A stretch of DNA of 63,617 bases, counting the filler, from Octopus bimaculoides (lineage: Eukaryota), in NCBI RefSeq assembly GCF_001194135.2. It is 7 parts of 7 records of this genome, joined end to end, with 100 filler letters (N's around TTAATTAATTAA, not from the genome) between each part and the next. Parts side by side here need not be neighbours in the genome. Positions count along the whole stretch, not along the records: positions 1 to 17,608 come from NC_068986.1; positions 17,709 to 44,432 come from NC_068987.1; positions 44,533 to 52,180 come from NC_068981.1; 4 more parts are not named here. The stretch is one strand, 5' to 3'. Below, piece by piece: positions 8,059-51,994 of the stretch. The position numbers and the translations under genes are program-made. How positions within the stretch are numbered: position 1 is the stretch's first letter; each line of letters starts with the position of its first letter. The notes beneath the pieces are model-generated. The model was not told the origin of the DNA, ran no database searches, and saw only the letters and a list, made by a program, of their open reading frames with translations.

Positions 8059-8307
8059 AATCAAACAATAAGCAACACGGATTTCAAAAGTGATTGTAGT
8101 ACGCACGTTTCATGCTACTTCAATTTATTTAAGTAATGTGAGCATTATTATATTATAATATGTCTTTTTTTCTACATTTTCGTGCAGCTGAAGATTGCTC
8201 TTCATATTGCATTTAAGGTAATGCTCACATTACTTAAATAAATTGAAGTAGCATGAAACGTGCGTACTACAATCACTTTTGAAATCCATGTTGCTTATTG
8301 TTTGATT
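8059..8307. repeat. Foldback element: 89-bp inverted arms, 71-bp spacer, degenerate hammerhead motif
   Basis: Arms 8059-8147 and 8219-8307 differ at one position by my alignment. CTGAAGA at 8188-8194; GAAAC-GTGC-GTA at 8255-8266. Confidence 0.85.
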
Positions 8308-8390
8308 TTAATCACCCATCCTTTTGGGATGTGATATTCGGGTGCCTTCGCATAAGTACCATATTCAAGCCTTGAATCTATATTTACTGG

Positions 8391-8693
8391 AAGGTACCAA
8401 TATTTACTGGAAAATAGCAACCGATACAAATACGACTCTATTGTAAAGCTTCACTGCATATATACTGGCAAAGACGTGTGAGAGCAACAAACATGAAAAA
8501 TTTGTCTTACCTCCAGGAAGAACATTCGATAAATGGACCACCCAGAATCGGACAATGCAAGACCGGTTTCTGACTCTTCCAATACGTTTGACAACGTAAA
8601 TTTGATCAGTCTTCATCAGTATATATGCAGTGAAGCTTTACAATAGCGTCATATTTGTATCGATTGCTATTTTCCAGTAAATATTGGTGCCTT
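8391..8693. repeat. Foldback element: ~77-bp inverted arms, ~150-bp spacer with hammerhead core
   Basis: Arms 8391-8467 and 8617-8693 are reverse complements with a few mismatches. Confidence 0.85.
8553..8630 (-). ncRNA. Putative type I minimal hammerhead ribozyme
   Basis: CTGATGA (8619-8613) - A-GACT...AGTC-A - GAAAC-CG-GTC (8570-8561). Stem I is weak (TGCA/TGCA with a TA-repeat bulge). Confidence 0.55.
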
Positions 8694-8775
8694 GTTGTAC
8701 CACTCATCTATATTTATATGTATAGTTCTACCCTTAAGGGGTTTTATTTTACTGGAAAGTAATACATTTTATTGC

Positions 8776-8806
<31 letters not shown>

Positions 8807-9089
8807 ATTCTTTTACTTGTTTCAGTCATTTGACTGTGGTCATGCTGGAGCACTGCCTTTAGTCGAACAAATCGAACCCAGGACTTATTCTTTGTAAGCC
8901 TTCTACTTTTTCTATCGTCACTTTTGCCAAACTGCTAAGTAATGGGGACATAAACACACCAACATCGGTTGTCAAGCGATGGTGTGGGGATGAACACAGA
9001 CACACACACAAATATATACATATATATGTATATACGACAAGCCTTTTTCAGTTTCCATCTACCAAATCTACTCACAAGGTTTTGGTCAT

Positions 9090-9686
9090 GGGATGAGGTG
9101 GTGAAGCATGATCTTTGAACTTTGAACCTCACAGAGGCAATGACTAGTGACTGAGACTTTTGGCGATATGCTGTGCTTGAGAAAACCTGTCAAGCCAAGT
9201 GAAATTGTAGTCGTGGCTGAAATTGGTGTCACATAACTGGCACTGGTGCTGGTGGCATGTAAAAAGCACCTTTTGAGCACTGGGCCTCATAAAGGCAAAG
9301 TTGCTGATGCCGGTGGCACAGGAAAAGCTCCTACTGAGTGTCGGGCCTCACAGAAGCAATGACCAAGATATTTGACATTATGTCATGCTTGAGAAGAAGA
9401 CCCATCAAGCCAAGTAGAATCACAGTCATGGTAGAATCACAAGCCAAGTAGAATCAGTCATGTCACGCAAATGGCACCCATGCTGATGGCATGCAAAAGC
9501 ACCTATAGCACTCTCATAGTGGTTAGTGTTAGGATAGGCATCCAGCTATAGAAACTGTGCCAAATCAGACTGGAGTTAGGTGCGGCCTTCCAGCTTACTA
9601 ACCCTGGTCAAACTGTCCAACCCATGCCAGCATGGACAACAGATGCTAAATGATGATAATGATGATGATGATGATGATGATGATGA
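9090..9686 (+). mobile_element. RTE LINE long 3' UTR with ~200-bp internal repeat units and (GAT)n tail
   Basis: CCTCACAGAGGCAATGAC...GCTTGAGAA..ACC..TCAAGCCAAGT...GTAAAAAGCACC occurs twice, followed by the RTE tail shared with 1915-2098. Confidence 0.7.
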
Positions 9687-9861
9687 TACGATGGGCTTCT
9701 TTCAGTTTCCATTTACCAAATCCACTCATAAGGCTTTGGTTGGCCCAAGGCTTATAGTAGAAGACACTTGCCCAAGGAGCCATGCAGTCGGACTGAACCC
9801 AGAACCATGTGGTTGGGAAGCAAGCTTCTTACCACACAATCACAACTGTGCGTATACACAC

Positions 9862-9906
<45 letters not shown>

Positions 9907-10412
9907 CACACACACACACAAATGCCACATATATACACATATATTCACACACATGTATGTATGTGTATTTATATGTATGTGTGTGTGCACATGCACACAC
10001 GAGTATGAGTGTGTATACACACAGCAACCCAGCCCAACATTTCTGAAAACTCATGAATTTAAACTTTTGAAAAAATCATACGTGAATTAATATTAAAACA
10101 AATAAATCTCCTTAGACAGTCTCTGAGCTTTTTCAACTTCATTTATTTCTCTTCTGTGCAACTTACTTGCATGGATTAATAACTACTTTGTCTATATTTG
10201 TGTGTGTGTGTGAGTTTGTGTAGGAGTGTTCCAGTGGAAGTATTACCAGTGTGTTTGTGTTTGTACTTCCACCTCTTGACAGCTAGTGCTGGTTTGTTTA
10301 CATCCCCATGACTTAGCAGTTCAACAAAGAGAAAAAAATATGTACTCGTGGCAACTTGCTCAATTAAATTATTCAGGCTGTGCCCCAGCATAATTGTAGT
10401 AAAAAATAAAAC

Positions 10413-10473
<61 letters not shown>

Positions 10474-10535
10474 NNNNNNNNNNNNNNNNNNNNNNNNNNN
10501 NNNNNNNNNNNNNNNNNNNNNNNNNNNNNNNNACA

Positions 10536-10587
<52 letters not shown>

Positions 10588-12054
10588 TACACATGTGTAT
10601 TAAATTAAAGCAAATGAAATATCTAAATATTCTTTCTTTCTTTTATACGTTTACTTGCTTCAGTTGTTTGACTGAGGTACATAAACCACCACATCACAAC
10701 AAGAATTGGACTTTGTGGTGGATCCTGGAACTATAGTAGAAGACATTTGCCTAAGGGGCAATACGATGGAACTGAACCTGAAGCTACATGATTGCAAACT
10801 AAACTTTATAACCTCACAGCCTTTCCCATTTTCTCACTTTTGCTGCATGCGCATGTGTAGATTTACAGATTTGGTTGGTGGAAACTGAAAGAAGCTTATT
10901 TTATACTTATGTTTGTGTCTCCTTGAGGTATTGGAGGGGAACTTTCTTGGTGCAATCCCATGGTCATTCATGACTTAAGGGTTTTTTTACCCTTTACCTT
11001 TACCCTGTGTCTCTTTGTCTTGTTCAGCTAAACCATTCTAGGAATTGCTTCAGCATGGTTGCTGTTCAATGGCTAAAACAAGTGATAAAATATAATAAAA
11101 TTAAATACTGAAAACCAAGCTGAAGCTGAGAAAGAGTAATAATTTCATTGACAAGACTTAAACTCTGAACCTGTTGCTCACCTTATAGCCACATTACTGA
11201 TCATACCATAGTATGTCTATATCTCTTCTTTTTTAAATTTAGACATTACAAGTATGTCTGTTTCAATAGATCTTGTAACTTCTACTGTTGCCTATTTCAT
11301 TGAATAATTTGTCAGAAATTTACCCATAAAGAGTTACGCGTCTTCACAGTGAACATCATCATCATCATCAGCAGCAGCAGCAACATCATCATGGTTGTAA
11401 TTAATGTCTACTTCCCATGCTTGCGTAGGTTCAACAGAGTTTAACTGAGGCAAATTTCTATAGCTGGATGCCCTTCCTGCTGCCAACCCTCATCTGCTTC
11501 TGAGTAAGGAAATATTTCCTCATTACCAGACATATTTTCATAGAATATTGGAAAAGAAGGACACTGCTTGTATGGCAGTGACACTCATTTACAACTATCA
11601 CACAATGTAAAGACAAGAAGATACTAATGCACACTCACACATACATATATGCACACATGTACAAACACACACACATATGATGGAGTTCTTTCAGTTTTCT
11701 TCTACTAAATCCTCTCACAAGGTTTTGGTTAGTCTAGGGATATTAGTAGACAACACTTCCAAGATACCATGCTGTGGCACTGTACCTAAAACTCTGTAGG
11801 TGAGAAGTAAACTTTTCAACCGCACAACCATATTGTATGGTTAAGAAATTCTCCTTGCAGCCACAGAGTGTTTCAGTTCAATCTCATAGCATGACATCTG
11901 AGGCAAGTTTTTCTTTCTACCATTGACATGGGTTTATCCTATGGTTTATCCATATCCATTCATAAATTAGCCAAAACAGAAACTCAGACAAGATAATTAA
12001 ATTGAAGTCATTCATACCACATAAATACTTATCACATTCCTCAGATAAATTCTT

Positions 12055-12420
12055 AATCGAAAAGTTAACTTCGTTAACCGTTGATCTGTTAGCCAAAATG
12101 TTACCTTCAATAACCATTAATCAATTAATTATTTCCTAACATAACGGAAATTATCAACAAACTGTTGATATGAATTTTTATTATAGAAAAAACAGAAAAT
12201 CAGTTTTTGCGCTAAAACCACCTAAAAACACCTTTAAAAAGTGCCAGAACTATAAACTCTGTAAACTTCAATTCAATTAAAGTTAACAGAAGTTAAATGT
12301 AATGGCAGTTAATTAGTCTAATAAGGGTTTCCAAGTTAACTTAAAAGCTAAATTGTTTACGAAAATGGTAACTTCGTTAATTAACAATTAGCGGATTAAT
12401 GGGTTGGTGCCCAGGTTTGG
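12055..12420. mobile_element. Possible non-autonomous DNA transposon remnant (hAT-like) with AAGTTAAC subterminal repeats
   Basis: Repeated AAGTTAAC/GTTAAC motifs; right end GTGCCCAGGTTTG resembles a hAT-type TIR. Left TIR not found. Confidence 0.3.
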
Positions 12421-14667
12421 TTAATCCCAAGCCTTATGAATGAAATCTGGTAAATCTTTAGCCTTTTATCTTTTATTTGTTTCAATCATTAGACTGTGAG
12501 CATGCTTGGGTACCACTTTGGATAATTTTTTAGTTAAATGAATTGACCACAGTACTTTTTTTTTTAAGCCTGGTGCTTATTTTATCAGTCTGAACTGCTA
12601 GGCTACAGGGACATAAATACACCAACACCAGTTGTCAAGCAGTGGTGGGGGAGAAACACAGAGATGCACACACATAAATAAATATGTGTGGTAAGTAGCT
12701 TGCTTACCAACCACATGGTTCCGGGTTCATTCCCACTGAAAAGCACCTTGGGCTAGTGTCTTCTACTATAAAGCCTTGTGAGTGGATTTAGTAGATGGAA
12801 ACTGAAAGAAGCCTGTCATATATATGTATATATATATGTGTGTGTGTGTGTATATGTTTGTGTGTCTGTGTTTGTCCCCACCAATATCGCTTGACAACCG
12901 ATGGTGGTGTGTTTACATCCCCGTAACTTAGCAGTTCGGCAAAAGAGACCAATAGAATAAGTACTAGGCTTCCAAAGAATAAGTCCTGGGGTTGATTTGC
13001 TCAACTAAAGGTGGTGCTCCAGCATGGCCACAGTCAAATGATTGAAACAAGTAAAATATAAAAAAAAGTATGNNNNNNNNNNNNNNNNNNNNNNNNNNNN
13101 NNNNNNNNNNNNNNNNNNNNNNNNNNNNNNNNNNNNNNNNNNNNNNNNNNNNNNNNNNNNNNNNNNNNNNNNNNNNNNNNNNNNNNNNNNNNNNNNNNNN
13201 NNNNNNNNNNNNNNNNNNNNNNTATATATATATATATGAATATGTTTGTGCTCCCCACCATCACTTGACAACCAATGCTGGTGTGTTTACACTCCCGTAA
13301 CCTAGCAGTTCAGCAAAAGAAACTGATAGAATAAGTATTAGGCATACAAAGAATAAGTCCTGGGGTTGATTTGTTCGACTAAAGGTGGTGCTCCAGCATG
13401 GCCGCAGTCAAATGACTGAAACAAGTAAAAGAATATAAAACCAAACACATCACACACACACACACACACACACACGTATATACACACAATGGGCTTCTTT
13501 AAGTTTCTGTCTATCAAATTCACACTCACAAGGTTTTGGTTGGCTTGAGGCTATAATAGAAGACATTTACCAAAGGTGCTACACTGTGGGACTGAACCCA
13601 GAAACATGTGGTTGGGAAGCAAGCTTCATGTCACACAGCCACACCTGTGCCTGTGAACATTTTGACAAAGCCCATCAAACAGGCACCTGTTCTTAAGTGT
13701 AGACTTAATCGTTCATCCAGTAAAATACCACCAACTGGTGTTCTTGGGTGATTTTGAAGGCATTTAACTATATTGTAAGCGTTCTGACTGCAACAATTTA
13801 TGAGTCACAATTTCTATCTCCTTCCCTTCCTATCAATCTCAGAACCCCCTACAGAGATCATGGGTGGTGCTATCCGATTCTGACTAAGCTGAAAAAAATA
13901 TATATATTAGAGTTATCAGATTTTGATTTTATGCTTCAATGAAAACTAGCATGGAGAATTTAATTATGAATATAATTAAAAAAAATTAATGGCTAATACT
14001 TTTAATTGCTGACCCTCTGCAAAGCATAATTATAACCCACATTAGAGTTTGTGTATTGCTCATGTATCTGAGATGATAGTGTGTTACTTCAACAGATACA
14101 AACGATGTAGACCAGTGGCTTGGGTTCTTAATCTTTTTGACATTGTGGTGCACTGGAGATTAAATATAAAAAAAATTACTGTTGAACTGGAAATTAAATG
14201 GAAAAATACTGGTAGACTTTGCATGGAAAATTAAACCAGACTTGGTTTTAATGTTAAAAAACCAGAAACCAAAAATATATCGGAAACTATAACTTATTTT
14301 GTTTCATTAACCATTCTTGCATATAACAGAATTATGAATAACATTTTTTTTTTAAAGATGTTCAAGCATTAGTATAGATTTTCTAAAGCCTTAAATCATC
14401 ATCATCATCATTGTTGTCGTCGTCATCGTCATCATTACCATCATCATTATAACAGCCACTTTTCTATGCATGCATGGGGAAGGTGGAGTTCATTGAGGCT
14501 AATTTTTCTATGGCTGCATGCTCTCCTTGTTGCCAACCCTCATCTGTTTCCTGGCATGTTTTTATAGAAGAGTGACATTGACATTGTGTAACTCTCATTT
14601 ACAACCATCACGTAATGTCAAATTAAGAACACAAACACATAAACACACACAAACACACACAAACACA

Positions 14668-14706
<39 letters not shown>

Positions 14707-14819
14707 ACACACACACACAAAAACAAACATAGACATACACATGTATCACACACATATGTACTTATATATACATTATTTCTCACTGTATTAAGTTTCTAAA
14801 TACTTGCATCAACAATATA

Positions 14820-15555
14820 CAAGGGTTAGACAAAATAATGGAAACACCTTAAAATTTCAAACAAATTTATTTTAATATGGGGTGGGATCGCCTTTGGCAA
14901 TAATTACAGTTTGAATTCTATGTGGTATGGACTCGTACAAAGTTTGAATTGTTTCCAAAGGAATTTTTGTCCATCCTTCAGCAAAAACAATCTCTAGTTC
15001 TTGTAGTGATGATGGTGGAGGACATCGACTCTTTACTTGTTTTTCTAAAATGCACCATAAACGTTCAATAATATTGAGATCTTGAGTCTGTGGTCGCCAG
15101 ATAAGATGTTCAACGTCAGTAGAAAGTTCTTTGTGCCTTTCAGTAACAAATTTAGCTGTGTGAATTGGTGCATTATCATCCTGAAAGACTGCGTTTCCCT
15201 CCAGAAACAGTTCTGCAACCATAGGATGAATTTGATCAGATAAATTGCTTGACTATTAATTCTGCCATGAAGGGAAACCATTGGGCTGGCAGATTTCCAA
15301 GACATAGCCCCCTGGATCATCACAGATCCTCCTCCATGTTTAACAGTTGGAAGAAGGCAGTCTGGGTCAAATGCTTCTTTTGGCTGTCTCCACACGTATA
15401 CTTGGCCTATGGTCAGAAATAAGGTAAAAGATGACTCATCGGAGAAAATAACATTCTTCCACTGCTCAAGGGACCAATTTTGTAGGTTTTTACTCCACTC
15501 TAAATGCTTTGAAAGTAGTGGTTTTTCTGATTGCAGCCCTCCTGCTTGTGTTTCC
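14820..15555 (-). mobile_element. Tc1-family (DD34E) transposon, 3' two-thirds with terminal TIR; frameshifted pseudogene
   Basis: WKNVIFSDESSF...PTVKHGGGSVM...VFQDDNAPIHTA...WRPQTQDLNIIERLW...AKGDPTPY*. TIR CAAGGGTTAGACAAAATAATGGAAACACC from 14820, preceded by TA. The 5' part is cut at a family B SINE half. Confidence 0.92.
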
Positions 15556-16816
15556 ATAACTTAGCAGTGTGGCAAAAGAGACAGATAGAAAGATAGAATA
15601 AATACCAGGCAGCTAAAAAAAGATACAAGTCCTATGGTTGGGTTGATCTGTTCAACTAAAACCCTTCAAAACCTTCATGCAGTATCCCAGCATGGCTGCA
15701 GTCCAATGACTGAAACAAGTAAAAGATAAAGATATCTATCAACAGCTTTTGAAGAGGTGAAGGGATGATAGATGTTAAAAGTTCAGTTAAAAACAGATAG
15801 ATATTTATTTAATTATTGCTATTTAGTTCATCAATTATTAAATAATTGACTATACAGCCTGTGAAAGTATTATTTATGCAAGTGAGACTAATTGATTTTG
15901 TGAAGTCATAATATTTTGTGACTATAAATAACTATAAGGAATACATATTTCTCTCTAGGCAAAGGTAGGTGTGTTCCCCCGGAATAAACCCCCAAACTAA
16001 AGGTCTGGGTCTTTTTTCTGTCTATGGAGAAACAAAAATGACATTTGTTAAGGTATATCTTTATGTGCATTTCAAAGATATATATATACACGTTGGCACG
16101 CAAAAGGCACCTACTACACTCTTGGAGTGGTTGACATTAGGAAGGATGTCCAGCTGCCTTGCCAAATCAGATTGGAGCCTGGTGCAGTCTCCCGGCCTGC
16201 CAGTTCTCAGTCAAACCGTCCAACCCATGCCAGCATGGAAAGCAAACATTAAACAACGATGATGATGATGATGATGATGATGATAATGATGATGATGACA
16301 CACACTGCATAATGTTGAAAATAATATTTAGTGCATCAATAATTAAATATTTGGTTATATAACCACTACAAGCACTATCTATGCAAATCAGATTAACTGA
16401 TTTATTGAAGGTATTATATTTAGTGGCTATATATAATTACAAGCAGTAACTTTCTCCCTGTGTGTGCAAGCAATGATGGGTGTGTCATATCTGAAGATGT
16501 CCCAACTAAGATCAAACCAGATCAAGCCGACCCCCATTTTTTCTGTTCCATTCATGGAGTAATGAAAAAACTGAAATTTTATATTTGTTTACATTTGTCC
16601 AAGTATATTCAATTACACATCACTGCAATGGTTAATCCTGTCAGCACTACTAGACAAGAAAACCAACATCTGGACCTGAGCTCCACAAGTCTTCGGTCAG
16701 CCTCACAGCCAGTGCACTTTATGATGTATGTTCTACAAACAGAAGGAGATGTTATTGAAAACATCTTGGCATAAACATAAAATCTCAAACATTATCAACA
16801 ACATATACTTAATGTA

Positions 16817-17321: not shown

Positions 17322-17608
17322 AAATAATACAGAATGGGACAAGAACGCAAAACATCCAGACAGTCAGGTGATACAAGAAAGGGACAAAACATCCAGCTAG
17401 ACGATACAAAGAAAACAAGGACAGGTCATTCGGAGTTTTCTTTCCTCAGTCGAGATCCAGATTAGCCTTGCAATTTCGGCTAGGAAAGAAAACTCCAAAT
17501 GACCTGTCCTTGTTTTCTTTGTATCGTCTATCTGGATGTTTTGTCCCTTTCTTGTATCACCAAACTGTCTGGATGTTTTGCGTTCTTGTGTCCCATTCTG
17601 TATTATTT
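17322..17608. repeat. Long inverted repeat (~125-bp arms, ~32-bp loop)
   Basis: Arms 17322-17446 and 17479-17608 are near-identical reverse complements. The right end abuts an assembly spacer. Confidence 0.9.
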
Positions 17609-17708: not shown

Positions 17709-17854
17709 AAGGCCCGAAATTTTGGGGAAGAGGGGCTTGTTGATTAGATCGACCCTAGTACGTAACTAATACTTAACTTATCGACCCCAAAATGATGAAA
17801 GGCAAAGTCAGCCATGGCGGGATAGCAGTATATACTGATACACAAACGGGTATG

Positions 17855-17885
<31 letters not shown>

Positions 17886-32650: not shown

Positions 32651-34300
32651 CAACACCAACGTCCTCTGAACGATTAGCCAGAGATGAGTTTTAAAATGAG
32701 AATATCTGAAATAAACTCGACTGATCTCACACACGAAAATACTAAAAGTGAACCATGGGTTGGCAGCCCTTGCGGAAAGGAAAATAGAACGCCCAAAGGG
32801 CTCCCGATCCTCTAAAAGGCAGCGTCTAATCCCGATTTAGTCCTGACCCCTCCGAGGTGTACTATCGGTCAAGGCTGTATCGAAAATATGCATTGGAGAA
32901 GGTTTTAAAATAATAATAATAATAATAATAATAATAACTATACAAGGCAGAGTACGAACAACTCGATGAAGAAATGGAAAATTATCTCGTTTACCCTTCC
33001 ATTTTCCCTGCAAGTCAGTAACCTCGCTAAATTATGTTTTAGGATTATTGACAGAAATTTCCCATTAGGCCATAAATATACCATCTGTAATAGATCCTGC
33101 CTTAAACTATCGTACTAACTACGCCCAAGCTAAGATCTATAATTGCGGCGAATAATAGATTAAAACTTAGAAATAATGGTATCGATGAAGATGATAGTAT
33201 AGCTGGTCTGAATATGAATAATAATAAGAATTTTGATATTAAATATATAAAGCCGAAGCGTGGAAAAGATGTAACTGTCGTAACCGGGATTTATGTTCCT
33301 TAAAGGGATTATGTTTAAGGAGAAATATCGTATATAAAGTTGAGGTTTCACCATAAAGAATTGAGTCTGGATTGGTCTATTAATACGGAAACCACACCAT
33401 ACAATACACACACCAGAAATTGTAAATTATACACAAAAAAGCGATTAATATTCTCCGTGCAGATGAAAAATTTTTACTTAATAAGATCTCGGATGTCATT
33501 ATTGTTTGTAGACAACTTTTAAATTTTATTCCAAAGATAATTAGTTTATATGATTTTAAACTATTTACTCTTTGTGCATTTGGATTCATCTTAAAATCTA
33601 TAGCTTCATAATCTAGTTAAACATGTAAATTTAGCTCTTATTATATCATCCGCCTGAACAGTATAGTATGTTCGACACAGCATTCGAATTTAAAAAATTC
33701 TTAAATTTCTCATGTTGCTTAGAACTTTAAGATTTAAATAACTCTTTTATAAATCCTTTCACATTAACTCTAATGAGAGAAATGTATATGATTGTTATGG
33801 TTGGAATTAACTCGCCCATACCAACCCATATTTTCTCGAAACGGCCGTCAAACTTTGTATCTTCTAAAGATTCTTCTTAAAATCATTTTATACCAACATT
33901 CTCATCTATTTAGATTACCGCTATATCTTCACCATGTACATATTTTAATATCCTCATTGATTTTAATACGGACATACAACCTCGCAAGTACATTTATGTA
34001 TTTATATATTTACATATTTTTATATTATATCATGTGTATATGAGTGCATCTATGTATGCTGTGAGGGTATTCCGATGCTTTGAAATATATAGTGAGTGAA
34101 TATGAACGCTGACCTTTGAAATTTGTTCTGTCTTTCTTGGCTTTATATATATATATATNNNNNNNNNNNNNNNNNNNNNNNNNNNNNNNNNNNNNNNNNN
34201 NNNNNNNNNNNNNNNNNNNNNNNNNNNNNNNNNNNNNNNNNNNNNNNNNNNNNNNNNNNNNNNNNNNNNNNNNATATATATTGTGTGTGTGTGTGTGTGT

Positions 34301-35478
34301 ATTATAGTGGGGTAGGCCGATTTACGGAGTTACCCCGGGTTTCTCGCTCATAGAGAGTTTAGCCTTATGGCGTATCTTCAGACCCCAAACACTGCTGGCC
34401 TGAGACCTATTTAAAATATGGATGGAGGGAAAAGCCTCGTTTTTATGGGTAAAAACCCTGGGTGATTATCTCCCTTGGCCATTGTTCATCGATCTTCGGC
34501 CGTGCTGCCATATTGCGCTCACTAAAGCATCACGAAGGTAAACGATTGTCTCTCTTCGGCCTTGGCTATTGGTCTCCCGATGTGGTGCTGCCCTGTGGAT
34601 TCCAAAAACCAGTAGGAATTTTCTAAAATGCAAGCATGGTCCGAAAATCTCCGTCCTGGAGTTCAGGATGTTCCCTTGCACGAGTGAGTCTTTAAGGATA
34701 CTCGTGTGTTCGGAAATGCATAACTTACACCGTTTCGTCCCATTGATGTAGGGGCCTGGGTTCTCGAGTATTTTCCATGCGATCGAGTATGGAATCTCTT
34801 CGTCTCTTAATTGCCAGATATGGCTGGCCCGTGATATCACGTATCCCCTTTCCGGGACTCTGAAGGGGAACAGATGATTGGAAATTCGCTGTTTGAGAGA
34901 TTTTGCAGTGCACCTCACGTACTTCTGTGAGCGCGTGATGTTGCGCATGTTGCTGTTGTAGGTGCTGCTGTTGTTGGTGCTGTTGCTGCTGCCGTTACCG
35001 CTGATGCCGCCGATGGAGTTGTCACTGCTGGGGTTGGGGCTGCTGCTGTTGGTGCTGGTGTGAGCGTCACTGGGGGTGATGTTGTTGCCGGTCATATTCT
35101 CGTCCCTGCGCGTGTTGCCTGTAGTGCAGTCGTTGTTGCTGCTGTTGCTGGCGTTGCTGTTGTTGCTGTTCTTGTTACAGCTGTTGTTGTTGTTGTTGTC
35201 GACAATGCTGCTGGCGCTGCCACCCACATAAATACGTAGGATGCATTGGGAACTCTCGCAAACAGCGTATTTCCAATCATCTGTGCTCCTTCAGAGTTCC
35301 GGAAAGGAGATACCTGACATCGGTGGCCAGCCTTAAAAACGAGGCTTTTCCCCACCTCCATATTTTAAAGAGGTCTCAGGCTAGTAGTGTTTGGGGTCGG
35401 AAGATATGCCGTATGTCTAAACCTTTTATGAGCGAGAAACCCAGAGTAACCCCATAAACCAGCCTACTCCACTATAAT
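34301..35478. mobile_element. Head-to-head inverted Penelope-like 3' ends (GIY-YIG endonuclease plus UTR)
   Basis: Outer arms 34301-34445 and 35334-35478; inner arms 34822-34927 and 35230-35332. Minus-strand KYVRCTAKSLKQRISNHLFPF..SHIWQLRDEEIPYSIAWKILENPGPY.NGTKRCKLCISEH..LNSRTE..PCLHFRKFLL is a Penelope-type GIY-YIG C-terminus. Confidence 0.85.
34321..34390 (-). ncRNA. Putative type I hammerhead ribozyme (second, core-mutated copy at 35389-35459 +)
   Basis: GTTTGGGGT-CTGAAGA-TACGC..GCGA-GAAAC-CCGGG-GTA-ACTCCGTAAAT. In the right copy stem I is GTTTGGGGT/ACCCCA(T)AAAC but the core is CGGAAGA. Confidence 0.5.
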
Positions 35479-37714
35479 ATTACCTGCTCTACATCTTACA
35501 GTATGCTTCACCTCCGGATTTATGTATTTCTACAGACGAGTGTAGAAATGTTGTGAGTGTGCCTGTGTGTGTGTGTACTAATACAATTATTATAAGTAAC
35601 CAGAATAAACTAGATAGTTTAGAATTGCCATTGATGTGCTAAACCCTAAAAAAAACTGTTCTCCTGTTGTTTATATTCCAAATGTTTCAAGGGTTTCTTA
35701 CTAAATCGTTCTTTTGAGCTTCTGCCAAAGGTTATGGTTGTTGGTTATCTTGTTCTAGTATATGAACAACATAATCGGTTTAATTTGTCTAGGATTTTTC
35801 TGAATCGTAGCAGTCTAGATTATTTATTAAACAAGAAACAGGATTAGCCAGAATATAGTTAATGGGTTTGATCGCTGAGAGAATATTTTGCAAGTGAAGA
35901 CGTCTTTCATTCTCAACATTACAATGACTAAACATTCCACGGAACAGGATTAACAGTCATTGCTATATTTTCTGTGTTAATGCAAGCCAATTGAGATTCA
36001 GAAAACTAGATTTTTCAGTTTTTCCTCAAGCATCAGTTTCTCACTGTTGCAACATTAGTGTAAGCCCTATTCCAAAAAAGATCCTTGTGTTGAACCCTTT
36101 CTCGTAACTCTATTCTCACATAAACATCATGAAATCTCTTAAGGATGTCTATTATTTCTAGTTTTAACTTTTTACTAAGAAGCACAACACGCATATACAT
36201 CAAAATATCTTTGGGCTACTGGCGCAAAATCTAGAATCCATTATTAACATTGTAAGGTGAATCTTAAGAAAATGACTGACGAATAAAAAAATATATATTA
36301 TGTAATATGAAGTAGAAATATATGTCATGTGTATGTTCACAACATATACATTAAAAAGCACTTTCTATATTGTTGTCAACTAAAGTGATAAATGTTCGAA
36401 GAAAGTATAGAAAATATCTTAATATAAAGACGTTTTTTCTTTTACTTAATTCGAAAATGTAAGGAATAGTGATAAAGGCTGATTCCCTTATGACTCCAAT
36501 TTGCGAAAGAACCGGAAGAAAGTTATAACTGTGCGGTGAAACTGCAGTCAAAGTTACCTCAAGGTAGAGTCTAATGTCCTTTACAAAGAACATGACACTG
36601 AGAAGTCTAGGGTATATTATACCTTGCAAAATAAGGCAGGATAGTCAGTTTCACATTGATGTCAAACTTACTATATCAACTTAAATATACGAAAATAAAT
36701 CAAATACATAACCATTACTAATTATTTATAATTATTTTAAATGATACGAGAATATTATAATTATATTTCTACGGGGAGTAAAGACTTTCACTATAAGTAG
36801 ATTTCAGTAAGTAATTAACCATATATTTTTACTTTAAATAATAAACAGATATATTCTAAAGGAAATAATACTTTCCTTCCTTCTTTTTCGTAACGTACAT
36901 AATGAACATGATAATTAAATAAATGAAATAAAAAAATAGAAACAGCAACTGTGTCGCATAATGCTTTCTCATATCAGTTTTATCTCTAAGGTATACAATC
37001 ATAATGTTATCTTGTACAATACACGTTTAAACAAAATGCTAGGTACATCAATTATTTATGTCGAAGGCTAAAATAGAACTTCGTTAATTCTGAACAAAGC
37101 AGCTTTACAATAACGTTCCATTTTAAATAGTGCAAAGAAAGACCCAAAGGATAAGACGAAAATAAATTATTGATTTCTAATGTAAGCAGAAATTTTATGC
37201 ATTTTGAGAGCGAGAACAGTCAAATATGTATACAACCCAGTAATTCACTACTAATTATTTTATGAAGCACTGACGGATTCAACGTAAAATAGCTCGCAAG
37301 ATATTGAATGTTATAAGTAAAAATGAATGAGGCATAGTATTGTAGATATCATGTGACAGCATCGGAAAATCACTACATACTTCATTATAACGCACGCACG
37401 CACGCACTCACACAAACACACTCACACTAACTCGACCAACAACAATTACTACCACCATCCCGACACCTCCACTAACACCTACAACAATATACACCACACT
37501 GACCAACAAAAATATAACAACTTAAATACTTCAACCACCACCACCCCCAACACGGCAACCATAGCAATGACTGACCAGCCCTGAACTCTATGCGCCCTAC
37601 TACCACCACCCACAGGGCCCCACCACCACCTAATAATCCATGCCTACGACGGCCACTGCTGCTGCTGCTAACGATTCCCGAGTTACAGACCTCACACAGG
37701 CAGAGAAACAACTG

Positions 37715-43385: not shown

Positions 43386-43609
43386 ATCTTGAAATATTTA
43401 AGTAAAAATATGGAAACTAGCTTTAAAATCTTGTGTTATAGTTTTAAAACTTAGCTTATTCGCGGTATTGTAAGATTTAACTTTACTTTAATTATGCCAT
43501 GTCATAGTCAGTGTTTGAGAAGTATAATATATTTACTCTGTATTGTGCTACATCAGCTTGAGTTTTTTTAAGGAAAAAAATAAGAGGAAAATAGTTTTCA
43601 GTGCCTTTA

Positions 43610-43835
43610 TTTAGGATTTTAAAAAATCAACATTATTTGAGAAACATAGCTTTTTCATTAATCTCTCCAGAGTTTCATATGTCATAAATTTTTCACTTTC
43701 TTTTTCGAAGACTCTACTGTCGTCAGGGCAAGCAATATGTATAATCAGAAATGATTTTTCTCCTTTTCTTCCAAGAATACTTAGTGGCATTTTATCCGTC
43801 TTCAAATATCGCCTAGATTGACTTTGCCATTCATC
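43610..43835 (-). mobile_element. R4/Dong-type RLE fragment
   Basis: EKSFLIIHIACPDDSRVFEKESEKFMTYETL..MKKL resembles LIIDIACP.D.RV.EKE.EK...Y..L. Confidence 0.7.
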
Positions 43836-44686: not shown

Positions 44687-44719
<33 letters not shown>

Positions 44720-44798
44720 GCCGATACATGCATCCTTATATATGTATAGATGCGTTTACGCACATATACATACATACATACATACATACATACATACA

Positions 44799-44829
<31 letters not shown>

Positions 44830-46874
44830 GGAAATGAGACAGTGTAGGTCTGTTTCCAAAATATGAATTTTGCAACTTTATTGTTCCAAACTCGCTGAAA
44901 AAATAACAATAAGAAAGTACGAGAAAATCTACAATAAAATAAAGTTTGAATACAGTTGTATATTTAATGAAGCACATATATGCGAATATATGTGTGTGTA
45001 TTTGTGTGTGTGTATTTGTGTGTGTATATTTGTGTTAAATTAGGATTATTGTCTTAAAGTGTGTTTAAGAACAACGGAACATTTACCCCTGAAGTGACCC
45101 ATTGCTGAAAGGAGAGTCAAATTTAGTATAAGATATGTTGTGGCTAGGAAATTTAATTCTTCATATGAAAGTACTCTATTTGATATATGTTTATATATTA
45201 TATCTATTGTATTATATTTTATATTTTATATTATATTGCATTATACTATATAACGTCTGTTTTTCCTGAACTATTCCAGTTGATAAATATTTCTGCATCA
45301 AGTTGTTATGTCCCATGTAAACCCTGAATTGAACATAAATATTATCAGCCATAATCACCCTGTAGATGTTAATGTTTAAATTGAGGGCGAATATGGCTGC
45401 CATTTCGGTCAGGTCTAACTATAGCATGGAGCTGTATTGTCTATTGCATTCTAACCTTTGAATGAGATATGGGATCGCCATGGTAATGCAATCTGCACAG
45501 AGATTTCCTCGTTGTGTTGTTTTGTTGCATAGCTGTCTTTGAATCTCGAACAGAGACTCCAATAAACATACAAACGAAAAGAATTGAGATACAGGATGTA
45601 TTCTGAAGATGAAACTAAAGACTGCAGTAGTTCATATACAAATATATTATGAATATTTTTGTCTCTTAGATTAACTATAAATCTTAGTACATTCTCATCA
45701 GATGTTTCTTTCTCATCAAATCGCTAAATTAGGAGATGGTTGTGCTTTACATTGATGTTTCTTGGTTGTCTTTACTAACTGTTCGTTTTTCTTTTGTCTC
45801 ATTATTTGATTTTTCAATTACATTAAAAACTACTGATTTGGTATTGATTTCTAACATAGGTACAAGGTCACAAATCCATGACACAATCGATTAAATCATC
45901 CCCATTATCTGATTGGTAATTTATTTTATCGAAAATTTGGAAAGGGAAATTATTATTGCTGAATCCTTAGATGAGACCACAATATTCAAAGACCAAAATG
46001 TAAGTTTCAGCAAGTTTCAATAAAATTTTTTCTTTTCTTTTTTTTTTAAAATTTTATTTTGTATAAACGACATGGTCAAGGGAGGGAGGGCAGTAGCCAT
46101 GACATTTTCACAAGACCTCTGAAACTGTTGGGATGAAGATACTGATTTCTCAAGCCATTCAGTTTGGTCCTAAAGCTTGCAAATAGAATTGACTCTATTA
46201 AAGTTATTCGCGAGCCGTGCGACTGTGTTAAACCGGATGATGAATAACAACTACAACCAAACAGGATTTCACAAAGTCTTCGTCAACCAAATTTCATGTT
46301 TTAGGGTCTGGGGCAAATTGGGATAACATTCTAGGTCACCTGATTTCAAAACAAACCTCATAACTACACGACTGATGAAGACATTTTATTAATGGCTCTG
46401 CAATGTTCAACATTCACATAGAGTGATGTTGTGTTGATTGTTGCTGAGCAGTTACATGTCAGCCTTAATTGAGTAGACTTATGATCAAAGGCATTCAAGC
46501 CTTTGCTGTCCTCTTTTCTTCTGGCATAGTGTATCTCAGGTCATATTATCCAATGTGTATCTTCTTTTTTAAGACAATAGTGTGTGATTTAATAAGGATT
46601 TTAGTGCTATTTACAACGTAAAGATTCTTGGAATATTGGTTCTATGATATATAACACCTACATATAAGATTACAGATTTTAGGAGGAAGGCCATAGTCGT
46701 ATCATCCCTCTGACTACTTGCTTGGTCCTTATTTTGTCGAACCCAGAAGGGTCCGATGCTTTATCATCTTTAGTGGTGTCAAATTGAATTCAAAATGGCG
46801 TTCTAATGATTTTGCCCTCCCCAGTTTCTCCCTACCATCCACCATCCCCACGTTTCTAAAAGAATATTAATATT

Positions 46875-47085
46875 CAACAGTTGGTATATGGTCACAATTT
46901 ATTTGAGATTGAGAATATATTTGATTGCATTGGCCCAAGTACTTCGCTACAACTTATTTTGTCGACTCCGAAAGGATATAGAGCCAAGTCGATCCCGACG
47001 GTGTTTGAATTCAGAACATAGAGATGTGACTAAACCCCTCAAGACATTATACACGACACTCTTACAATTCTGCCAATTCAATTAG
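46875..47085 (-). mobile_element. SINE family A, diverged; others at ~45845-45940, 46655-46830, 48380-48545
   Basis: Shared TTATTTT.TCGAC.C.GAAAGGAT.A...TTTGAA.TCAGAAC motifs. Confidence 0.65.
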
Positions 47086-48897
47086 ATATTGGAAGCAACT
47101 TTCAAGAAATCGTATGACGTCATTAAGACTTTAAACGTTAGCGATTAAGATGAGAAAAAGGTTCTAAAATTATTCAAAGAATAAAGAGAAAAATTATCAA
47201 AAATACTTTTTTTTTCTTTTGTCATCCCGAAGAATATCAATATTTTTGATTCGGTAAAATATTTGTTAGTTACGTTAATTTGAAATTTACTTACAGCTTA
47301 TGTGATTCATTACCCAGAATTGGTAGACACTCCTTAGAAAAATAGGATTTCACAACAGTTTACTTCCTGATTAAAACAATACTTGGGTTTTCATCTTTTA
47401 CAACTGAGAACAACTCGAGAAACTGTATTTTATAAAGAACTTCTACGCCTTTCACAATTTACCACTTGGCTTAAGGATGTTACCACGGCTATTTTCAAAG
47501 TGTATTCATTCATCCATTATCTTTTATTTTCATTTTACTTTATTTTGTTTTTCGCAAGTTCATTATATTTTATCTACTGTTCAACTGACATTCTGCTATA
47601 AATACGTGAAGTGCTCCTTAGAATGCTTCTAGAAGAGACTTCTAACGAAATACATGCACACATACAAAAGCATTGTTCAAGGAGGAATTTTTTTTTTTTT
47701 TTTTTTGCTTTCTATCTCTTACTTTCTTCCTTAAAAAAAAAAACGAAATTTCTCTCCCGGTCGTCAAATAGCTATACTCTTGTGCGATGGAGGCGTGAAA
47801 CAAACATAAATCTAAAATAATGCGTTAACCTTGTCGAATGAACCACGTTTACTTTTATTTATCTTATGTATTTTCTATTGTATATATATGTACGTGTGTG
47901 CGTGTGTGTAAGTAAGTGTGTGTATGTTTGTGTCTATGTTTTTAGGAGGTTTTTTTATGGTGTTAGGAACGGACCGGAAATCTGTCTCTTAAAAAGAAAG
48001 GAAGAGTCGCTGTTTTAGAAGTGAAGTATACCGCGTAGACAGGCGTTAAAAAGACATTAGGGACATTAGGAATATGATAAAAACGGTGACTATGTGACCG
48101 TTGGTGTTACCTTTTCTTCGTGATGAGTTAGAACACCACCGAAGTCTTCGTATTCATGCAAGTTAGTCTGGCAGAGTTATATCCACGGGATAGATTGATC
48201 TCAACATAAAATTTTACAGCGTTAATTCTACAATGCGCACTTACTACAAAGGAGCTGCTATGCGATCGCCTGACCTGCTAGAAATAGCGACTAAACGTCG
48301 CCTCAAACCACACCCCACCGTCTTTAAAAAATGATGATATATCTAAGACATTTGGTGATGTAATATTTATTTTTTTTATTTTTAGCTTAAGGCCAATAAT
48401 TTTGAGGAAAGAAGAAAGTCGATTACATCGACCCTGGTAATTATTCCGTCGACCACGAAAGAATGAAAAGTAAGGATGACTTCGGCGGTATTTGAACTCA
48501 GAATCTAAAGCAGGAAGAAATTCCACTAAGCATTTTGCCCCGCACAGCAACAAATGACGTACTATTAGATAGACGATGTCTGAGAAGAGAAAATGACTTG
48601 ATGATCATGGATAGAATCATGATCAACGTGGCTCTAAACAACAAGAAACATATGTACCATCACCACCATACACTTGTTAACTGTTTTGGTCAAATCATTT
48701 TCAGAAAGCTGGGTTTGCGATATGACACGAACCACCAAGCAAGCAACACATAAACGGGCATTAAATCTCCTCTTGAGCAAGTGAAACTCACAGTTTACGT
48801 TATCTCTTTATCCCTCAACCCCTTCCTACCTTTTATAAAGACGTTTTTGGCTAATCAATTGATGTGAATAAATTCACAAACTTATAGTAAGCTTATA

Positions 48898-49280
48898 GTG
48901 GTTGCGTGGTAAGAAGCTTGCTTGTTTCCCAACCACATGGTTCAGGTTTCAGTCCCACTGCGTGACACCTTGGGTAAATGTATTCTACTATAATCTCAGG
49001 TCGACCAAAGCCTTGTGAGTAGATTTGATAGACGGAAACTGAAAGAAGCCTGTCGTATATATGTGTGTGTGTGTCTTAGTTTGTCCCCATCTCCCACCAT
49101 CGCTTGACAACCGATGTTGGTGTATTTACATCCCTGTAACCTAGCGGTTCGGCAAAATATACCTATAGAATAAGTACCAGGCTTACAAAGAATAAGTACT
49201 GGGGTCGATTTCTTCAACTAAAGGTGGTGCTCCAGCATGACCACAGTCAGATGACTGAAACAAATAAAACAATAAAAAAA
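48898..49280 (+). mobile_element. SINE family B, compact full-length copy
   Basis: Both conserved halves are present, separated by only ~25 bp of TA/TG. Confidence 0.88.
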
Positions 49281-49404
49281 TAAATAGAAAAACTGCAATA
49301 AGCGTGTGAATCTGAGACGGGAATATGCTGAATAAAATCACAATTAATTGATCCTCCTGTATTTTCTTTTACCTAAAGCACCCATTCGTATAACATACAT
49401 GTAT

Positions 49405-49768
49405 GGCACTCCGTCACTTACGACGTCCAGGGTTCCAGTTGATCCGATCAACGGAACAGCCTGCTCGTGAAATTAACGTGCAAATGGCTGAGCACTCCAC
49501 AGACACGTGTACCCTTAACGTAGTTCTCGGGGATATTCAGCGTGACACAGTGTGACAAGGCTGACCCTTTGAATTCCAAGCTCAACAGAAACAGGAAGTA
49601 AGAGTGAGAGAAAGTTGTGGTGAAAGAGTACAGCAGGGTTCGCCACCATCCCCTGCCGGAGCCTCGTGGAGCTTTAGGTGTTTTCGCTCAATAAACACTC
49701 ACAACGCCCGGTTTGGGAATCGAAACCGCGAGTCCGCTGCCCTAACCATTAGGCCATTGCTCCTCCAC
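49405..49768 (-). mobile_element. SINE family C, full length, 11-bp TSD
   Basis: Reverse complement of 4531-4908. TSD ATAACATACAT at 49390-49400 and 49769-49779. Confidence 0.9.
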
Positions 49769-50362
49769 ATAACATACATAACGCCTGGGGATATTCGAAG
49801 GAAAAGACACAATAGAAGTGTGTAGCTGTAAGTAGAGGTAACACTGCTAACTAAACTGACGGACGTGAAGCTTGAAAACACATCACGTTAGTATATATTA
49901 TGTATATCAAAGAAAAAAGGAATATGTCAGTCTAAATAAAAGGTCATACATTGTAAAAGGCCATCTGCGGGAAGTGTACTGCAATGTTAGCCCAAAGTAG
50001 ATGTGGACATATGAATATGGCGGAGTGAGTTTAGGAATATAAGAGAATGACGTATACGTGGGTTAATAATGAAAATCAAACATTAATGAGTTATTTATGA
50101 CTAAGAATAGTATACGAGTAATTGCACAGTAAAATCTTTGAAAATTTATTGAAATAAATCAAAAGTTATTCGTAAGCTCCACAATATATGGTGTATGGAA
50201 GCATGATACAAGTGAGAGGTGCTTGTAAGAGGTGCGCATGCAGTAGCGAGAAGGCGAGAGAACGAAGAAGCGGTGGAGTAATTGGACAAAAAGGAGTAAT
50301 TGCAAAAACAAAACAGGTAAAAATGCAAGAAAAGTGACGTTAGTGTGTGGAACCTAGTAGGT

Positions 50363-50878
50363 ATGGACATACCTGTGACAAGCTTTAAAGTTCCTACAAG
50401 CATTAATAGACGCCAAGGGGACAGAGATGTTCGTAAGTAAATTTCCTTTGCTAATAGCATGAAGAAAACAATTCCAAGTTCAAATATCAAAGATGTAGTG
50501 GTTGTGTCTAAACGTTATATTTCTGTGATAAGCTTGGAGGTAATTTTAAGCTAAAGATGTAAGCAGACGCAGTTTTTAAATAGCGACTAATTAATATTAT
50601 AATTAACAGTACCTTCATCCTTCAATTTCCAGATGTAATTAGAGAGTATTGTTGTACTTCTTTCTTCTTGTCGAAAACAATAGGTATGTTGGTTGTGTCT
50701 GAATATAAAATCACTCACTGTCTGAGGCCTTCATAACATATTGTATATCGTTGTTTCAGGTGATGACTTTAATGTAGTATATCATACATTTCTTAAGGCA
50801 ATTGCCGTTTATGAAACAAGCGTTATAGTAAAGCAATTTCATGGTGATAACGAGTCGTATATGGCTGATGGGCGCTAA
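50363..50878 (+). CDS. Candidate 3-exon small ORF, 79 aa, unknown product (exons 50363-50432, 50633-50683, 50760-50878)
   Basis: Donors GTAAGT and GTATGT; acceptors TTCAATTTCCAG and TTGTTTCAG; both introns phase 1; frame open to TAA. No homology recognised. Confidence 0.3.
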
Positions 50879-51307
50879 TGTCCTCCAATTAATCTAGTTT
50901 GGGAAAAGAAGAAATAACTGCATGATTTTATCTTACCCTAAAGTAATTCCTATTGAAAACTTTAGGAAACTTACGGCTAGTAATTATGTAGTTACTGTAT
51001 ATATGCATGTAAATTTAAAAAAGAATAAGTAATGTTAGAACTAACGGTTAAACAGGAAGGTGGATTAAACCATAAACCTGCCTTTACCTGGTATTGTATG
51101 AATAAGAAGTTTTTTTTTTCTGAATATATATTGAATTTTAGCTGTGAAGCAATTAAATACGATCAAACGTCCTTTCGGAAGATACTCTGCAAGTTCTCTT
51201 ACTGATATTCCTATTATAATTCTTAATAATAGCAAAAGAGCGAATAAGTGTGCGCACTTAAGTACATGGGTAAGAATGAGTGGGTTTGTATATATAAATA
51301 GATAGAT

Positions 51308-51354
<47 letters not shown>

Positions 51355-51725
51355 GGGAGTTCAAAAAAGAAAAACGACAAAAAAAACAACAAAAAACAAC
51401 AACGCGAGGACGTGATACAGATATTGTGTTACTGGACGCTCAGGAAAGGAAAGAAAGAGAATTTGAGGTTTCGAGCGGTGCTCTTTGTCGGAAATATAGG
51501 AAAGTCCACAGAAGGGAAGACGGAGGAAGAAAAAATCGCCAACGATATACACGAGGTTACATTGTGATGTATATAATAGTGTACAGACAATTTACGTATT
51601 TATAGACAAAAGAGGTGACCGTTAACAGGACACTTTACATGCTAGNNNNNNNNNNTTACATTGTGATGTATATAATAGTGTACAGACAATTTACGTATTT
51701 ATAGACAAAAGAGGTGACCGTTAAC

Positions 51726-51994
51726 AGGACACTTTACATGCTAGAAAGGGCAGTTAAAGTCCAAACCACGAATAAGAGCAATTTCAAAGGGTATGAAAAT
51801 AAAAAAACAATATATTTTTGTAGTTGCCTTCAGACTCGAGTTTCTGTATCAATGTGCAAAATAAATTAATTTGCCATCCGTACTTCTTCAGTGACAGCGC
51901 TAAAATTAATGCATATTTTATTTTCATTCCCTTTGAAATTGCTCTTATTCGTGGTTTAGGCTTTAACTGCGCTTCCTAGCATGTAAGGTGTCCT
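51726..51994. repeat. Foldback element: 79-bp inverted arms, 111-bp spacer with hammerhead
   Basis: Arms 51726-51804 and 51916-51994 are about 90% identical reverse complements. Confidence 0.85.
51826..51898 (-). ncRNA. Putative type I minimal hammerhead ribozyme
   Basis: GCTGTCA-CTGAAGA-A-GTA..TAC-A-GAAAC-TCGA-GTC-TGAAGGC. Stem I has 6/7 pairs, loop III is the palindrome TCGA, and the cleavage triplet is GUC. Confidence 0.65.

What the first reader, a model, noticed from the sequence alone, without database searches (positions are those of the whole stretch)
8059..51994. Recurrent architecture: ~250-300 bp foldback elements carrying a hammerhead ribozyme
Seen: three sequence-unrelated elements (8059-8307, 8391-8693, 51726-51994) share 77-89 bp inverted arms plus a type I minimal hammerhead motif. 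Two share an unusual A/A-flanked stem II. Known: Penelope pLTRs and non-LTR retrozymes carry such ribozymes, but retrozymes are described as tandem direct repeats. Inference: a class of non-autonomous, Penelope-mobilised 'foldback retrozymes' that repeat annotators would label MITEs. They could give self-cleaved hairpin RNAs and dsRNA substrates for ADAR or Dicer. I cannot confirm novelty without a literature and database check.
Basis: partly seen in the sequence, partly recalled or inferred. Interest (0 to 1): 0.75.

Follow-up and report, generated by a model that had tools for sequence, protein, structure and literature searches.

The report
Penelope-type insertions joined head to head
The three hairpins with ribozyme-like motifs are real, but each is a one-off, head-to-head insertion from a common repeat family, likely pasted by Penelope-type jumping-gene enzymes; this layout is already described and is not a new class of element.

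Summary
The inverted arms and hammerhead motifs exist and exceed chance. The hairpin is not a fixed element.

Each motif belongs to a high-copy family. In 100 copies chosen by their 3' part only, 40 carry a 5'-inverted piece, all head-to-head. None of 269 pairs shares both breakpoints.

E1 (8059-8383) is the 3' end of a Penelope-like element (PLE): one locus links it to a GIY-YIG endonuclease with Hydra-clade motifs. E2 and E3 belong to ORF-less tandem units of about 430 and 485 bp, like non-LTR retrozymes. Outer ends sit mostly at (TA)n.

In these copies the ribozyme is predicted to be blocked by its own arm (E1) or broken at the junction (E2); only E3 could fold. RNA reads show no cleavage ends. 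The A/A stem II base is not a class feature.

Inverted ends plus a one-sided tail are published for PLEs, and this scan found the layout before on other DNA. Residual interest: the two arms look copied from one template with paired start sites.

The parts
8059..8147 (-). E1 inverted arm: 5'-truncated copy of the family's 3' end (+31 to +119, counted from C3 of the hammerhead core), ending at the family's short 3' end next to an assembly gap
8153..8383 (+). E1 sense copy (-35 to +195): 3' end (pseudo-LTR) of a likely Hydra-clade Penelope-like element; 8307-8383 is the one-sided tail
8188..8266 (+). E1 hammerhead core: U.U at the base of stem II, 8-nt near-palindromic stem III, predicted cut after GUA. 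Its 3' half pairs with the inverted arm (predicted +79 kcal/mol to reach the ribozyme fold)
8391..8619 (-). E2 sense copy (0 to +228) of an ORF-less ~430-bp tandem unit; its 3' end abuts the E1 tail
8561..8619 (-). E2 hammerhead core, predicted cut after GUC; the 5' strand of stem I is replaced at the inversion junction (3-nt CTG microhomology)
8617..8776 (+). E2 inverted arm (about +150 to +316), running to the long 3' end and into (TA)n
51669..51918 (-). E3 sense copy (-27 to about +217) of an ORF-less ~485-bp tandem unit
51833..51891 (-). E3 hammerhead core in the hairpin loop: stem I 6 of 7 pairs, A.A at the base of stem II, 8-nt palindromic stem III, predicted cut after GUC; the only one of the three predicted able to fold (+3.3 kcal/mol)
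51913..52098 (+). E3 inverted arm (about +78 to +266), followed by (TG)/(TA) repeats
34300..35479 (-). 149-nt outer arms, a hammerhead at 34381-34331 and a decayed endonuclease frame at 34466-35290 (36% identical over 104 aa to the endonuclease of the E1 parent)
17322..17608 (-). F4: a further foldback (about 90% self-complementary) of a common repeat with a non-canonical hammerhead-like motif; cut off by the end of the packed stretch

Best explanation
Each hairpin is a single insertion of a common hammerhead-bearing repeat, made of two 5'-truncated copies joined head to head, and was likely written by the reverse transcriptase and GIY-YIG endonuclease of a Penelope-like element (PLE). Shown: the families are high-copy; inversions are frequent, always head-to-head and never at shared breakpoints; outer ends fall at two preferred sites, mostly next to (TA)n; E1's family lies downstream of a GIY-YIG frame; E2's and E3's families are closed ORF-less tandem units. 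Inferred mechanism: the endonuclease cuts both strands of an AT-rich target, and each free 3' end primes cDNA on the element RNA, one at the short and one at the long start site (hence the tail on one side only). The two cDNAs stop at random points and are joined through 0-8 nt of microhomology or a few filler bases. The hammerhead rides along because it lies 120-300 nt upstream of the start sites. The hairpin is a dead-end product, not the unit that is copied.
For: Copy number: 806, 1376 and 867 first-look candidates for E3, E1 and E2. Samples chosen on the 3' part only: head-to-head inverted piece in 8 of 29 (E1), 17 of 36 (E2) and 15 of 35 (E3) loci; tail-to-tail in 0 of 100; both breakpoints shared in 0 of 269 pairs. 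Parent of E1: locus L253 runs without a gap from a 367-aa frame with GIY-YIG (Pfam E 3e-5) through about 930 nt to the E1 hammerhead. Its CxCX5C linker and C-terminal CxxC and CxH fit the Hydra clade (PMC8557442 section 11). F5 in the window holds a related endonuclease frame inside its foldback (E 1e-16). Tandem periods of 416-438 bp (E2, 7 of 29 loci) and 481-489 bp (E3, 7 of 27 loci) were seen; the longest ATG frames are 24-60 aa. 3' ends are bimodal in all three families. In E1, 10 of 10 foldbacks with both ends visible have one short and one long end; 4 more rows had an end in a gap. Arms are closer to each other than to other copies in 13 of 13 (E1, 1.1% vs 3.3%), 13 of 13 (E2, 4.8% vs 9.3%) and 8 of 12 (E3, 12.1% vs 13.8%). 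Published precedent: inverted 5'-truncated copy and one-sided tail (PMC8557442, PMC3846280); opposite-strand minimal hammerheads 100-700 bp apart (PMC4209133); cleavage and extension of both strands with two start sites bounding the tail (PMC11167929).
Against: No reverse transcriptase was found attached to the E1 family: L253 is 5'-truncated within the ORF. No autonomous partner was found for E2 or E3 among 75 loci near endonucleases or other PLE ends; the one hit (68%, L277) looks like an older E3-like copy. Their PLE dependence therefore rests on shared insertion anatomy. No empty site was available, and target-site duplications cannot be read in (TA)n and gaps. For the window's own E3 the arms are no closer to each other than to other copies (13.8% vs 13.6%), and for E2 only slightly (9.2% vs 10.7%). 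Gene conversion between arms could also explain arm similarity. The tails here (about 60-90 nt) are longer than the published 30-40 nt. Three of the ten E1 foldbacks in the end-pairing count were picked on the long end.
Confidence: 0.88

Rival explanations
1. A distinct class of non-autonomous 'foldback retrozymes' with a fixed hairpin structure, transcribed and copied as a unit.
For: Hammerheads are about 30-fold enriched in short foldbacks (6 of 23 vs 0.18 expected). E3's motif sits in the loop and is predicted to fold. E2 and E3 are ORF-less.
Against: 0 of 269 pairs share both breakpoints and 60 of 100 copies show no adjacent inverted piece. E1's motif is predicted to be locked in the duplex and E2's lacks half of stem I. 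E1 derives from a coding PLE. RNA depth over E1's own junction is 1-7 per direction against 80-145 over the family part.
Confidence: 0.03
2. MITEs: non-autonomous DNA transposons with long terminal inverted repeats that happen to contain a hammerhead-like motif.
For: Size of 250-430 bp, inverted arms and TA-rich flanks.
Against: Arms are unequal and differ in length from copy to copy; most copies have one orientation only; families show 5' truncation and head-to-tail tandems; one family is linked to a GIY-YIG frame.
Confidence: 0.02
3. PLE-type elements inserted singly, with the inverted arm made by self-priming (fold-back) of the cDNA or of an antisense template, or later by repair or gene conversion, rather than by priming from both target strands.
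For: Arkhipova et al. 2013 propose self-priming on an antisense template for head-to-head junctions (PMC3846280). One E1 junction lies on a 6-bp palindrome (L033). Arm-to-arm similarity fits as well.
Against: Most junctions are asymmetric by tens to hundreds of nt, and some arms do not overlap at all (L329, L335, L347, L351). The strict short/long pairing of outer ends in E1 (10 of 10) is not predicted by simple fold-back.
Confidence: 0.07

Closest known systems
Insertions of endonuclease-bearing Penelope-like elements with inverted pseudo-LTR and one-sided tail (Arkhipova et al. 2013, PMC3846280, passages read; Craig et al. 2021, PMC8557442, passages, section 11 and supplement rows read)
   Same: 5' truncation, inverted 5'-truncated copy joined head to head, tail on one end only, microhomology junctions, hammerhead near the 3' end, asparagine-rich insert in the ORF.
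   Different: Here most insertions are so short that only the ribozyme-bearing end remains; tails are about 60-90 nt rather than 30-40; the inversion rate (40 of 100) is measured.
Hydra clade of PLEs, including Hydra-1_Obim (PMC8557442 section 11 and supplement)
   Same: C-terminal GIY-YIG with a CxCX5C linker, CxxC and CxH motifs and no CCHH by eye; hammerhead in the 3' end; insertion into (TA)n.
   Different: The E1 parent has a ~930-nt stretch between ORF and hammerhead, a long asparagine-rich insert, and a hammerhead of other sequence with a 60-nt stem II region (Hydra-1_oBim: 7 bp plus 8-nt loop in supplement file S2). Its reverse transcriptase was not recovered.
Metazoan non-LTR retrozymes (Cervera and de la Pena 2020, PMC7229834, part 2 and passages read; Li, Clavereau and Pollet 2026, bioRxiv 10.64898/2026.07.22.740005, part 1 and passages read)
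   Same: E2 and E3 families: ORF-less, AT-rich, head-to-tail units with one type I hammerhead per unit, probably PLE-derived.
   Different: Units are 430-485 bp, at or above the reported 150-450 bp; mostly monomers or partial dimers; often inverted. 'Inverted' does not occur in the first paper and only in a reference title in the second. Circular RNA was not shown here.
Minimal hammerheads of metazoan PLEs (Cervera and de la Pena 2014, PMC4209133, parts 1-2 read)
   Same: Short palindromic stem III that needs a dimer, long stem II, extra nucleotide after A9; pairs on opposite strands 100-700 bp apart were noted in Schistosoma.
   Different: A 1x1 mismatch (U.U in E1, A.A in E3 and half of E2) closes stem II instead of G10.1-C11.1. 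U.U is published (PMC3088659, PMC7229834); A.A was not found.

Membership tests
EN+ Penelope-like element (E1 family) | C-terminal GIY-YIG endonuclease upstream of the hammerhead-bearing end | tested here: met
   L253 contiguous; Pfam PF01541 E 3e-5, above cut-off
EN+ Penelope-like element (E1 family) | Telomerase-like reverse transcriptase in the same ORF | tested here: inconclusive
   The one copy followed upstream is truncated before the RT; no full-length copy was recovered
EN+ Penelope-like element insertions | 5' truncation with inverted copy joined head to head | tested here: met
   40 of 100 loci head-to-head, 0 tail-to-tail
EN+ Penelope-like element insertions | Optional tail at one end only | tested here: met
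   Bimodal 3' ends; E1 short/long in 10 of 10 foldbacks with both ends visible; longer than the published 30-40 nt
Hydra clade (E1 parent) | CxCX5C linker, CxxC and CxH motifs, no CCHH | tested here: met
   Read by eye from the L253 translation against the description
Hydra clade (E1 parent) | RT motifs (RWK, DKT) and RT phylogeny | not tested
   RT not recovered
Hydra clade (E1 parent) | Insertion into (TA)n | tested here: met
   3' flanks of most E1 copies are (TA)n
Non-LTR retrozyme (E2, E3 families) | ORF-less head-to-tail unit with one type I hammerhead | tested here: met
   Periods of 416-438 and 481-489 bp; longest ATG frames 24-60 aa; family stem I pairs kept in 31-34 of 34 (E2) and 22-34 of 35 (E3) copies
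Non-LTR retrozyme (E2, E3 families) | Expressed as monomeric linear and circular RNA | tested here: inconclusive
Non-LTR retrozyme (E1 family) | Closed ORF-less tandem unit | tested here: not met
   Upstream sequence leads to the endonuclease; no head-to-tail repeat of the hammerhead region among 72 loci
Hammerhead ribozyme | Conserved core and three stems | tested here: met
   Intact core in 30 of 32 (E1), 28 of 34 (E2) and 18 of 35 (E3) family copies; the window copy of E2 lacks the 5' strand of stem I
Hammerhead ribozyme | Self-cleavage activity | not testable with these tools
   Needs in vitro transcription; Rfam scan to E 5 gave no hammerhead match
MITE | Fixed termini, constant inverted-repeat length, multi-copy identical structure | tested here: not met
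   0 of 269 pairs share breakpoints; 60 of 100 copies show no adjacent inverted piece

The most novel reading that the evidence does not exclude
These foldbacks record how Penelope-like elements integrate. Both target strands prime on one and the same RNA, one at the short and one at the long start site; the long-site enzyme displaces the first cDNA, so the same stretch is copied twice and the two products are joined head to head. Unlike L1 twin priming (recalled), the arms overlap. Thousands of such insertions in this genome, from autonomous Hydra-type elements and ORF-less retrozyme-type units alike, would make the unsolved second-strand step of PLE mobility directly testable.
Probability: 0.35. 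Interest if true: 0.5.

Novelty: new member of a known kind. Interest (0 to 1): 0.17.

Why it matters
As a new class it does not stand. It still matters in three modest ways. Repeat annotators could mislabel these short hairpins as MITEs, and they are abundant: 30 short foldbacks and 23 strict hammerheads per Mb in a random sample. The paired short/long ends and the arm-to-arm similarity constrain the unsolved integration mechanism of Penelope-like elements. And hairpins of this number inside host transcripts would be a plausible source of double-stranded RNA for editing or silencing, which is untested here.

Tried and rejected
Rfam scan to E 5: no hammerhead family match, nearly all rows being microsatellite-driven miRNA or snoRNA noise. 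A custom descriptor with shuffles was used instead.

Neptune clade for the E1 parent: my first guess from memory, dropped after the motifs were compared with the Hydra description.

Hot spot of 5' truncation at the 5' edge of the hammerhead: suggested by the biased first samples. In samples chosen on the 3' part only, 7 of 80 breakpoints fall in -11 to +8, which is inconclusive. Copies starting at the cleavage site were not evidently enriched.

A 3' splice site just before stem I, as in D. virilis Penelope (PMC4209133): YAG is present in E1 and E3, but no spliced joint at that place appeared in three RNA-seq runs laid on E1.

Cleavage ends: no pile of molecule ends at the E1 or E2 cut site. 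About 6% of each run was read and the libraries appear unstranded, so this is weak. A-to-G counts (15-19 places vs 15-17 T-to-C) come from mixed copies and say nothing about editing.

The run search listed no RNA holder on record; this is not used as evidence.

An autonomous partner for E2/E3 was not found. The protein atlas gave no result. The Lunse et al. 2017 paper on dimeric PLE hammerheads (recalled) is not held. PMC9977147 was checked in passages: short PLE insertions into microsatellites, nothing on inversions.

Literature searches: 'retrozyme + foldback' gave one unrelated review (listing only); octopus + Penelope + hammerhead, the A10.1/A11.1 mismatch and Penelope twin priming showed no description of these families or of the paired ends. 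Only open-access text was searched, and the supplements of the bioRxiv preprint were not seen.
Full report
1. Observation. The arms are real: 8059-8147/8219-8307 (89 nt, 99%), 8391-8475/8609-8693 (85 nt, 92%) and, longer than stated, 51669-51818/51902-52051 (150 nt, 85%). A descriptor finds a type I hammerhead core in each. With stem I required, the window has 3 motifs against a mean of 0.07 in 100 shuffles; E2 passes only without that requirement. Rfam has no hammerhead match. The window is a pack, so E1/E2 (C6) and E3 (C1) are unlinked. The organism is probably an octopus; this is inferred from the similarity to Hydra-1_Obim and from earlier notes.

2. Each element is one copy of a large family. 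Genome searches gave 806 (E3), 1376 (E1) and 867 (E2) first-look candidates, of which 40 each were scored; most top hits cover one arm plus the loop, not the whole hairpin. E2 and E3 copies run on downstream into the sequence that lies upstream of the ribozyme, with periods of 416-438 bp (7 of 29 loci) and 481-489 bp (7 of 27 loci). Their longest ATG frames are 24-60 aa, so they are closed ORF-less units. E1 is different. Walking upstream reaches a GIY-YIG frame, and locus L253 joins it to the E1 hammerhead without a gap. Its CxCX5C linker and CxxC and CxH motifs match the Hydra clade as described in PMC8557442 section 11. The RT was not recovered. The missed foldback at 34300-35479 holds a related endonuclease frame itself.

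3. The hairpin is not fixed. To avoid selecting for foldbacks I searched with 110-115 nt downstream of the ribozyme. I examined 29 E1 loci (30 of 40 scored hits fetched, minus the window's own), 36 E2 loci (39 hits, 1 not fetched, 2 in a locus already counted) and 35 E3 loci (39 hits, 2 not fetched, 2 already counted). An adjacent inverted piece was found in 8, 17 and 15 of them, all head-to-head and none tail-to-tail; 0 of 269 pairs share both breakpoints within 5 nt. About ten E1 loci have a gap at the junction, so 8 of 29 is a floor. Junctions mostly show 0-8 nt of overlap or short filler.

4. Recurrence across the genome. In 120 evenly spaced 10-kb stretches of contigs 1-11 (1.008 Mb without N) there are 23 strict motifs against 0-3 in 10 shuffles, and 30 short foldbacks covering 0.8% of the DNA. 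Six of the 23 motifs lie inside foldbacks, against 0.18 expected. By eye about a third of the 30 foldbacks carry an intact or decayed motif, and where both arms carry one it points outward.

5. Ends and arms. All three families have two preferred 3' ends: about +118 and +195 (E1), +255 and +320 (E2), +217 and +300 (E3). In E1, all 10 foldbacks with both ends visible have one of each; 4 rows had an end in a gap, and 3 of the 10 were picked on the long end. In E2 and E3 the pairing holds in most rows by eye, with exceptions in complex or decayed loci. Arms are closer to each other than to other copies in 13 of 13 E1, 13 of 13 E2 and 8 of 12 E3 foldbacks, but not in the window's own E3. Published work gives the frame: an inverted 5'-truncated copy and a one-sided tail (PMC8557442; PMC3846280); a PLE protein that cuts and extends both strands at AT-rich DNA from two start sites bounding the tail, and does not need ribozyme cleavage in vitro (PMC11167929); and opposite-strand minimal hammerheads 100-700 bp apart, attributed to truncated PLEs (PMC4209133).

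6. Would these hairpin RNAs self-cleave? Folding predicts that E1's inverted arm pairs with the 3' half of the ribozyme (+79 kcal/mol to reach the ribozyme fold). E2 has lost the 5' strand of stem I at the junction (+34). E3 keeps the motif in the loop (+3.3), but its loop-less palindromic stem III would need a second molecule (dimer requirement from PMC4209133). The core is better conserved than the flanks in E1 and E2 but not in the older E3 family. The A.A at the base of stem II is kept in 30 of 35 E3 and 17 of 34 E2 copies; E1 has U.U in 32 of 32, a published variant (PMC3088659 passages; PMC7229834). Three RNA-seq runs hold E1-family reads, about half or more running on into unrelated sequence, as expected of copies inside host transcripts. 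They show no end pile at the cut site and no splice joint there, and low depth at this locus's own junction. These libraries are a weak test.

7. Mechanism. Shown: family structure, variable head-to-head junctions, paired ends, (TA)n flanks, and the endonuclease link for E1. Inferred: cutting of both target strands, priming at the two start sites, joining of the two truncated cDNAs, and use of PLE proteins in trans by E2 and E3. Self-priming on an antisense template (PMC3846280) and later gene conversion remain possible contributors.

8. Verdict. This is an ordinary outcome of Penelope-type insertion, involving one likely Hydra-clade PLE family and two retrozyme-like families. I found no description of these families in the searches made. 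The scan's earlier notes report the same layout eight times, once in this genome; none fits this place. Two of them gave me the Hydra lead, which I tested. One says most pieces stop just before the ribozyme; my unbiased samples do not show that clearly (7 of 80 breakpoints). The one point of remaining interest is the evidence that both arms come from one template with paired start sites, which some of those notes also propose.

Noticed in passing
window 34300-35479 (G000:C7:50.95 Mb): Larger foldback with a nested second inverted pair (34819-34929/35225-35335), a near-intact hammerhead on the minus strand, and a decayed Hydra-type endonuclease frame preceded by an Asn/Ser/Thr-rich stretch; 833 first-look candidates.
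   Followed up: partly
window 17322-17608; relatives in L125, L275, L350, L036, L052, L070: Common repeat with a consistent hammerhead-like motif in which a T follows GAA where A15.1 is expected; whether it is a variant ribozyme or a decayed one is open.
   Followed up: partly
window 51558-51645 and 51657-51744: Exact duplication across a 10-N gap: an assembly overlap, not a third arm.
   Followed up: yes
window 8379-8412: The young E1 tail abuts the older E2 end, with a 13-nt direct repeat 20 nt apart; E1 probably inserted at the AT-rich end of E2.
   Followed up: no
window 8170-8187 (+) and 51900-51910 (-); several motifs: A pyrimidine tract or YAG lies directly before the core or stem I in several families, like the intron end described for D. 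virilis Penelope; no spliced reads were seen for E1.
   Followed up: partly
L253:2100-3200 and L312:3220-4113: Long asparagine-rich inserts upstream of the endonuclease linker in Hydra-type ORFs, like those reported in rotifer Penelopes (PMC3846280).
   Followed up: no
L329, L335, L347, L351: Some inversions have non-overlapping arms, as in L1 twin priming (recalled), alongside the overlapping foldbacks of the same families.
   Followed up: no
window 14875-15560 and 2620-3048: Frames that look like a decayed Tc1-type transposase and a LINE reverse transcriptase fragment (labels recalled, not tested).
   Followed up: no
window 52281-53934: Tandem array of self-complementary units that yields many inverted-repeat calls.
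   Followed up: no
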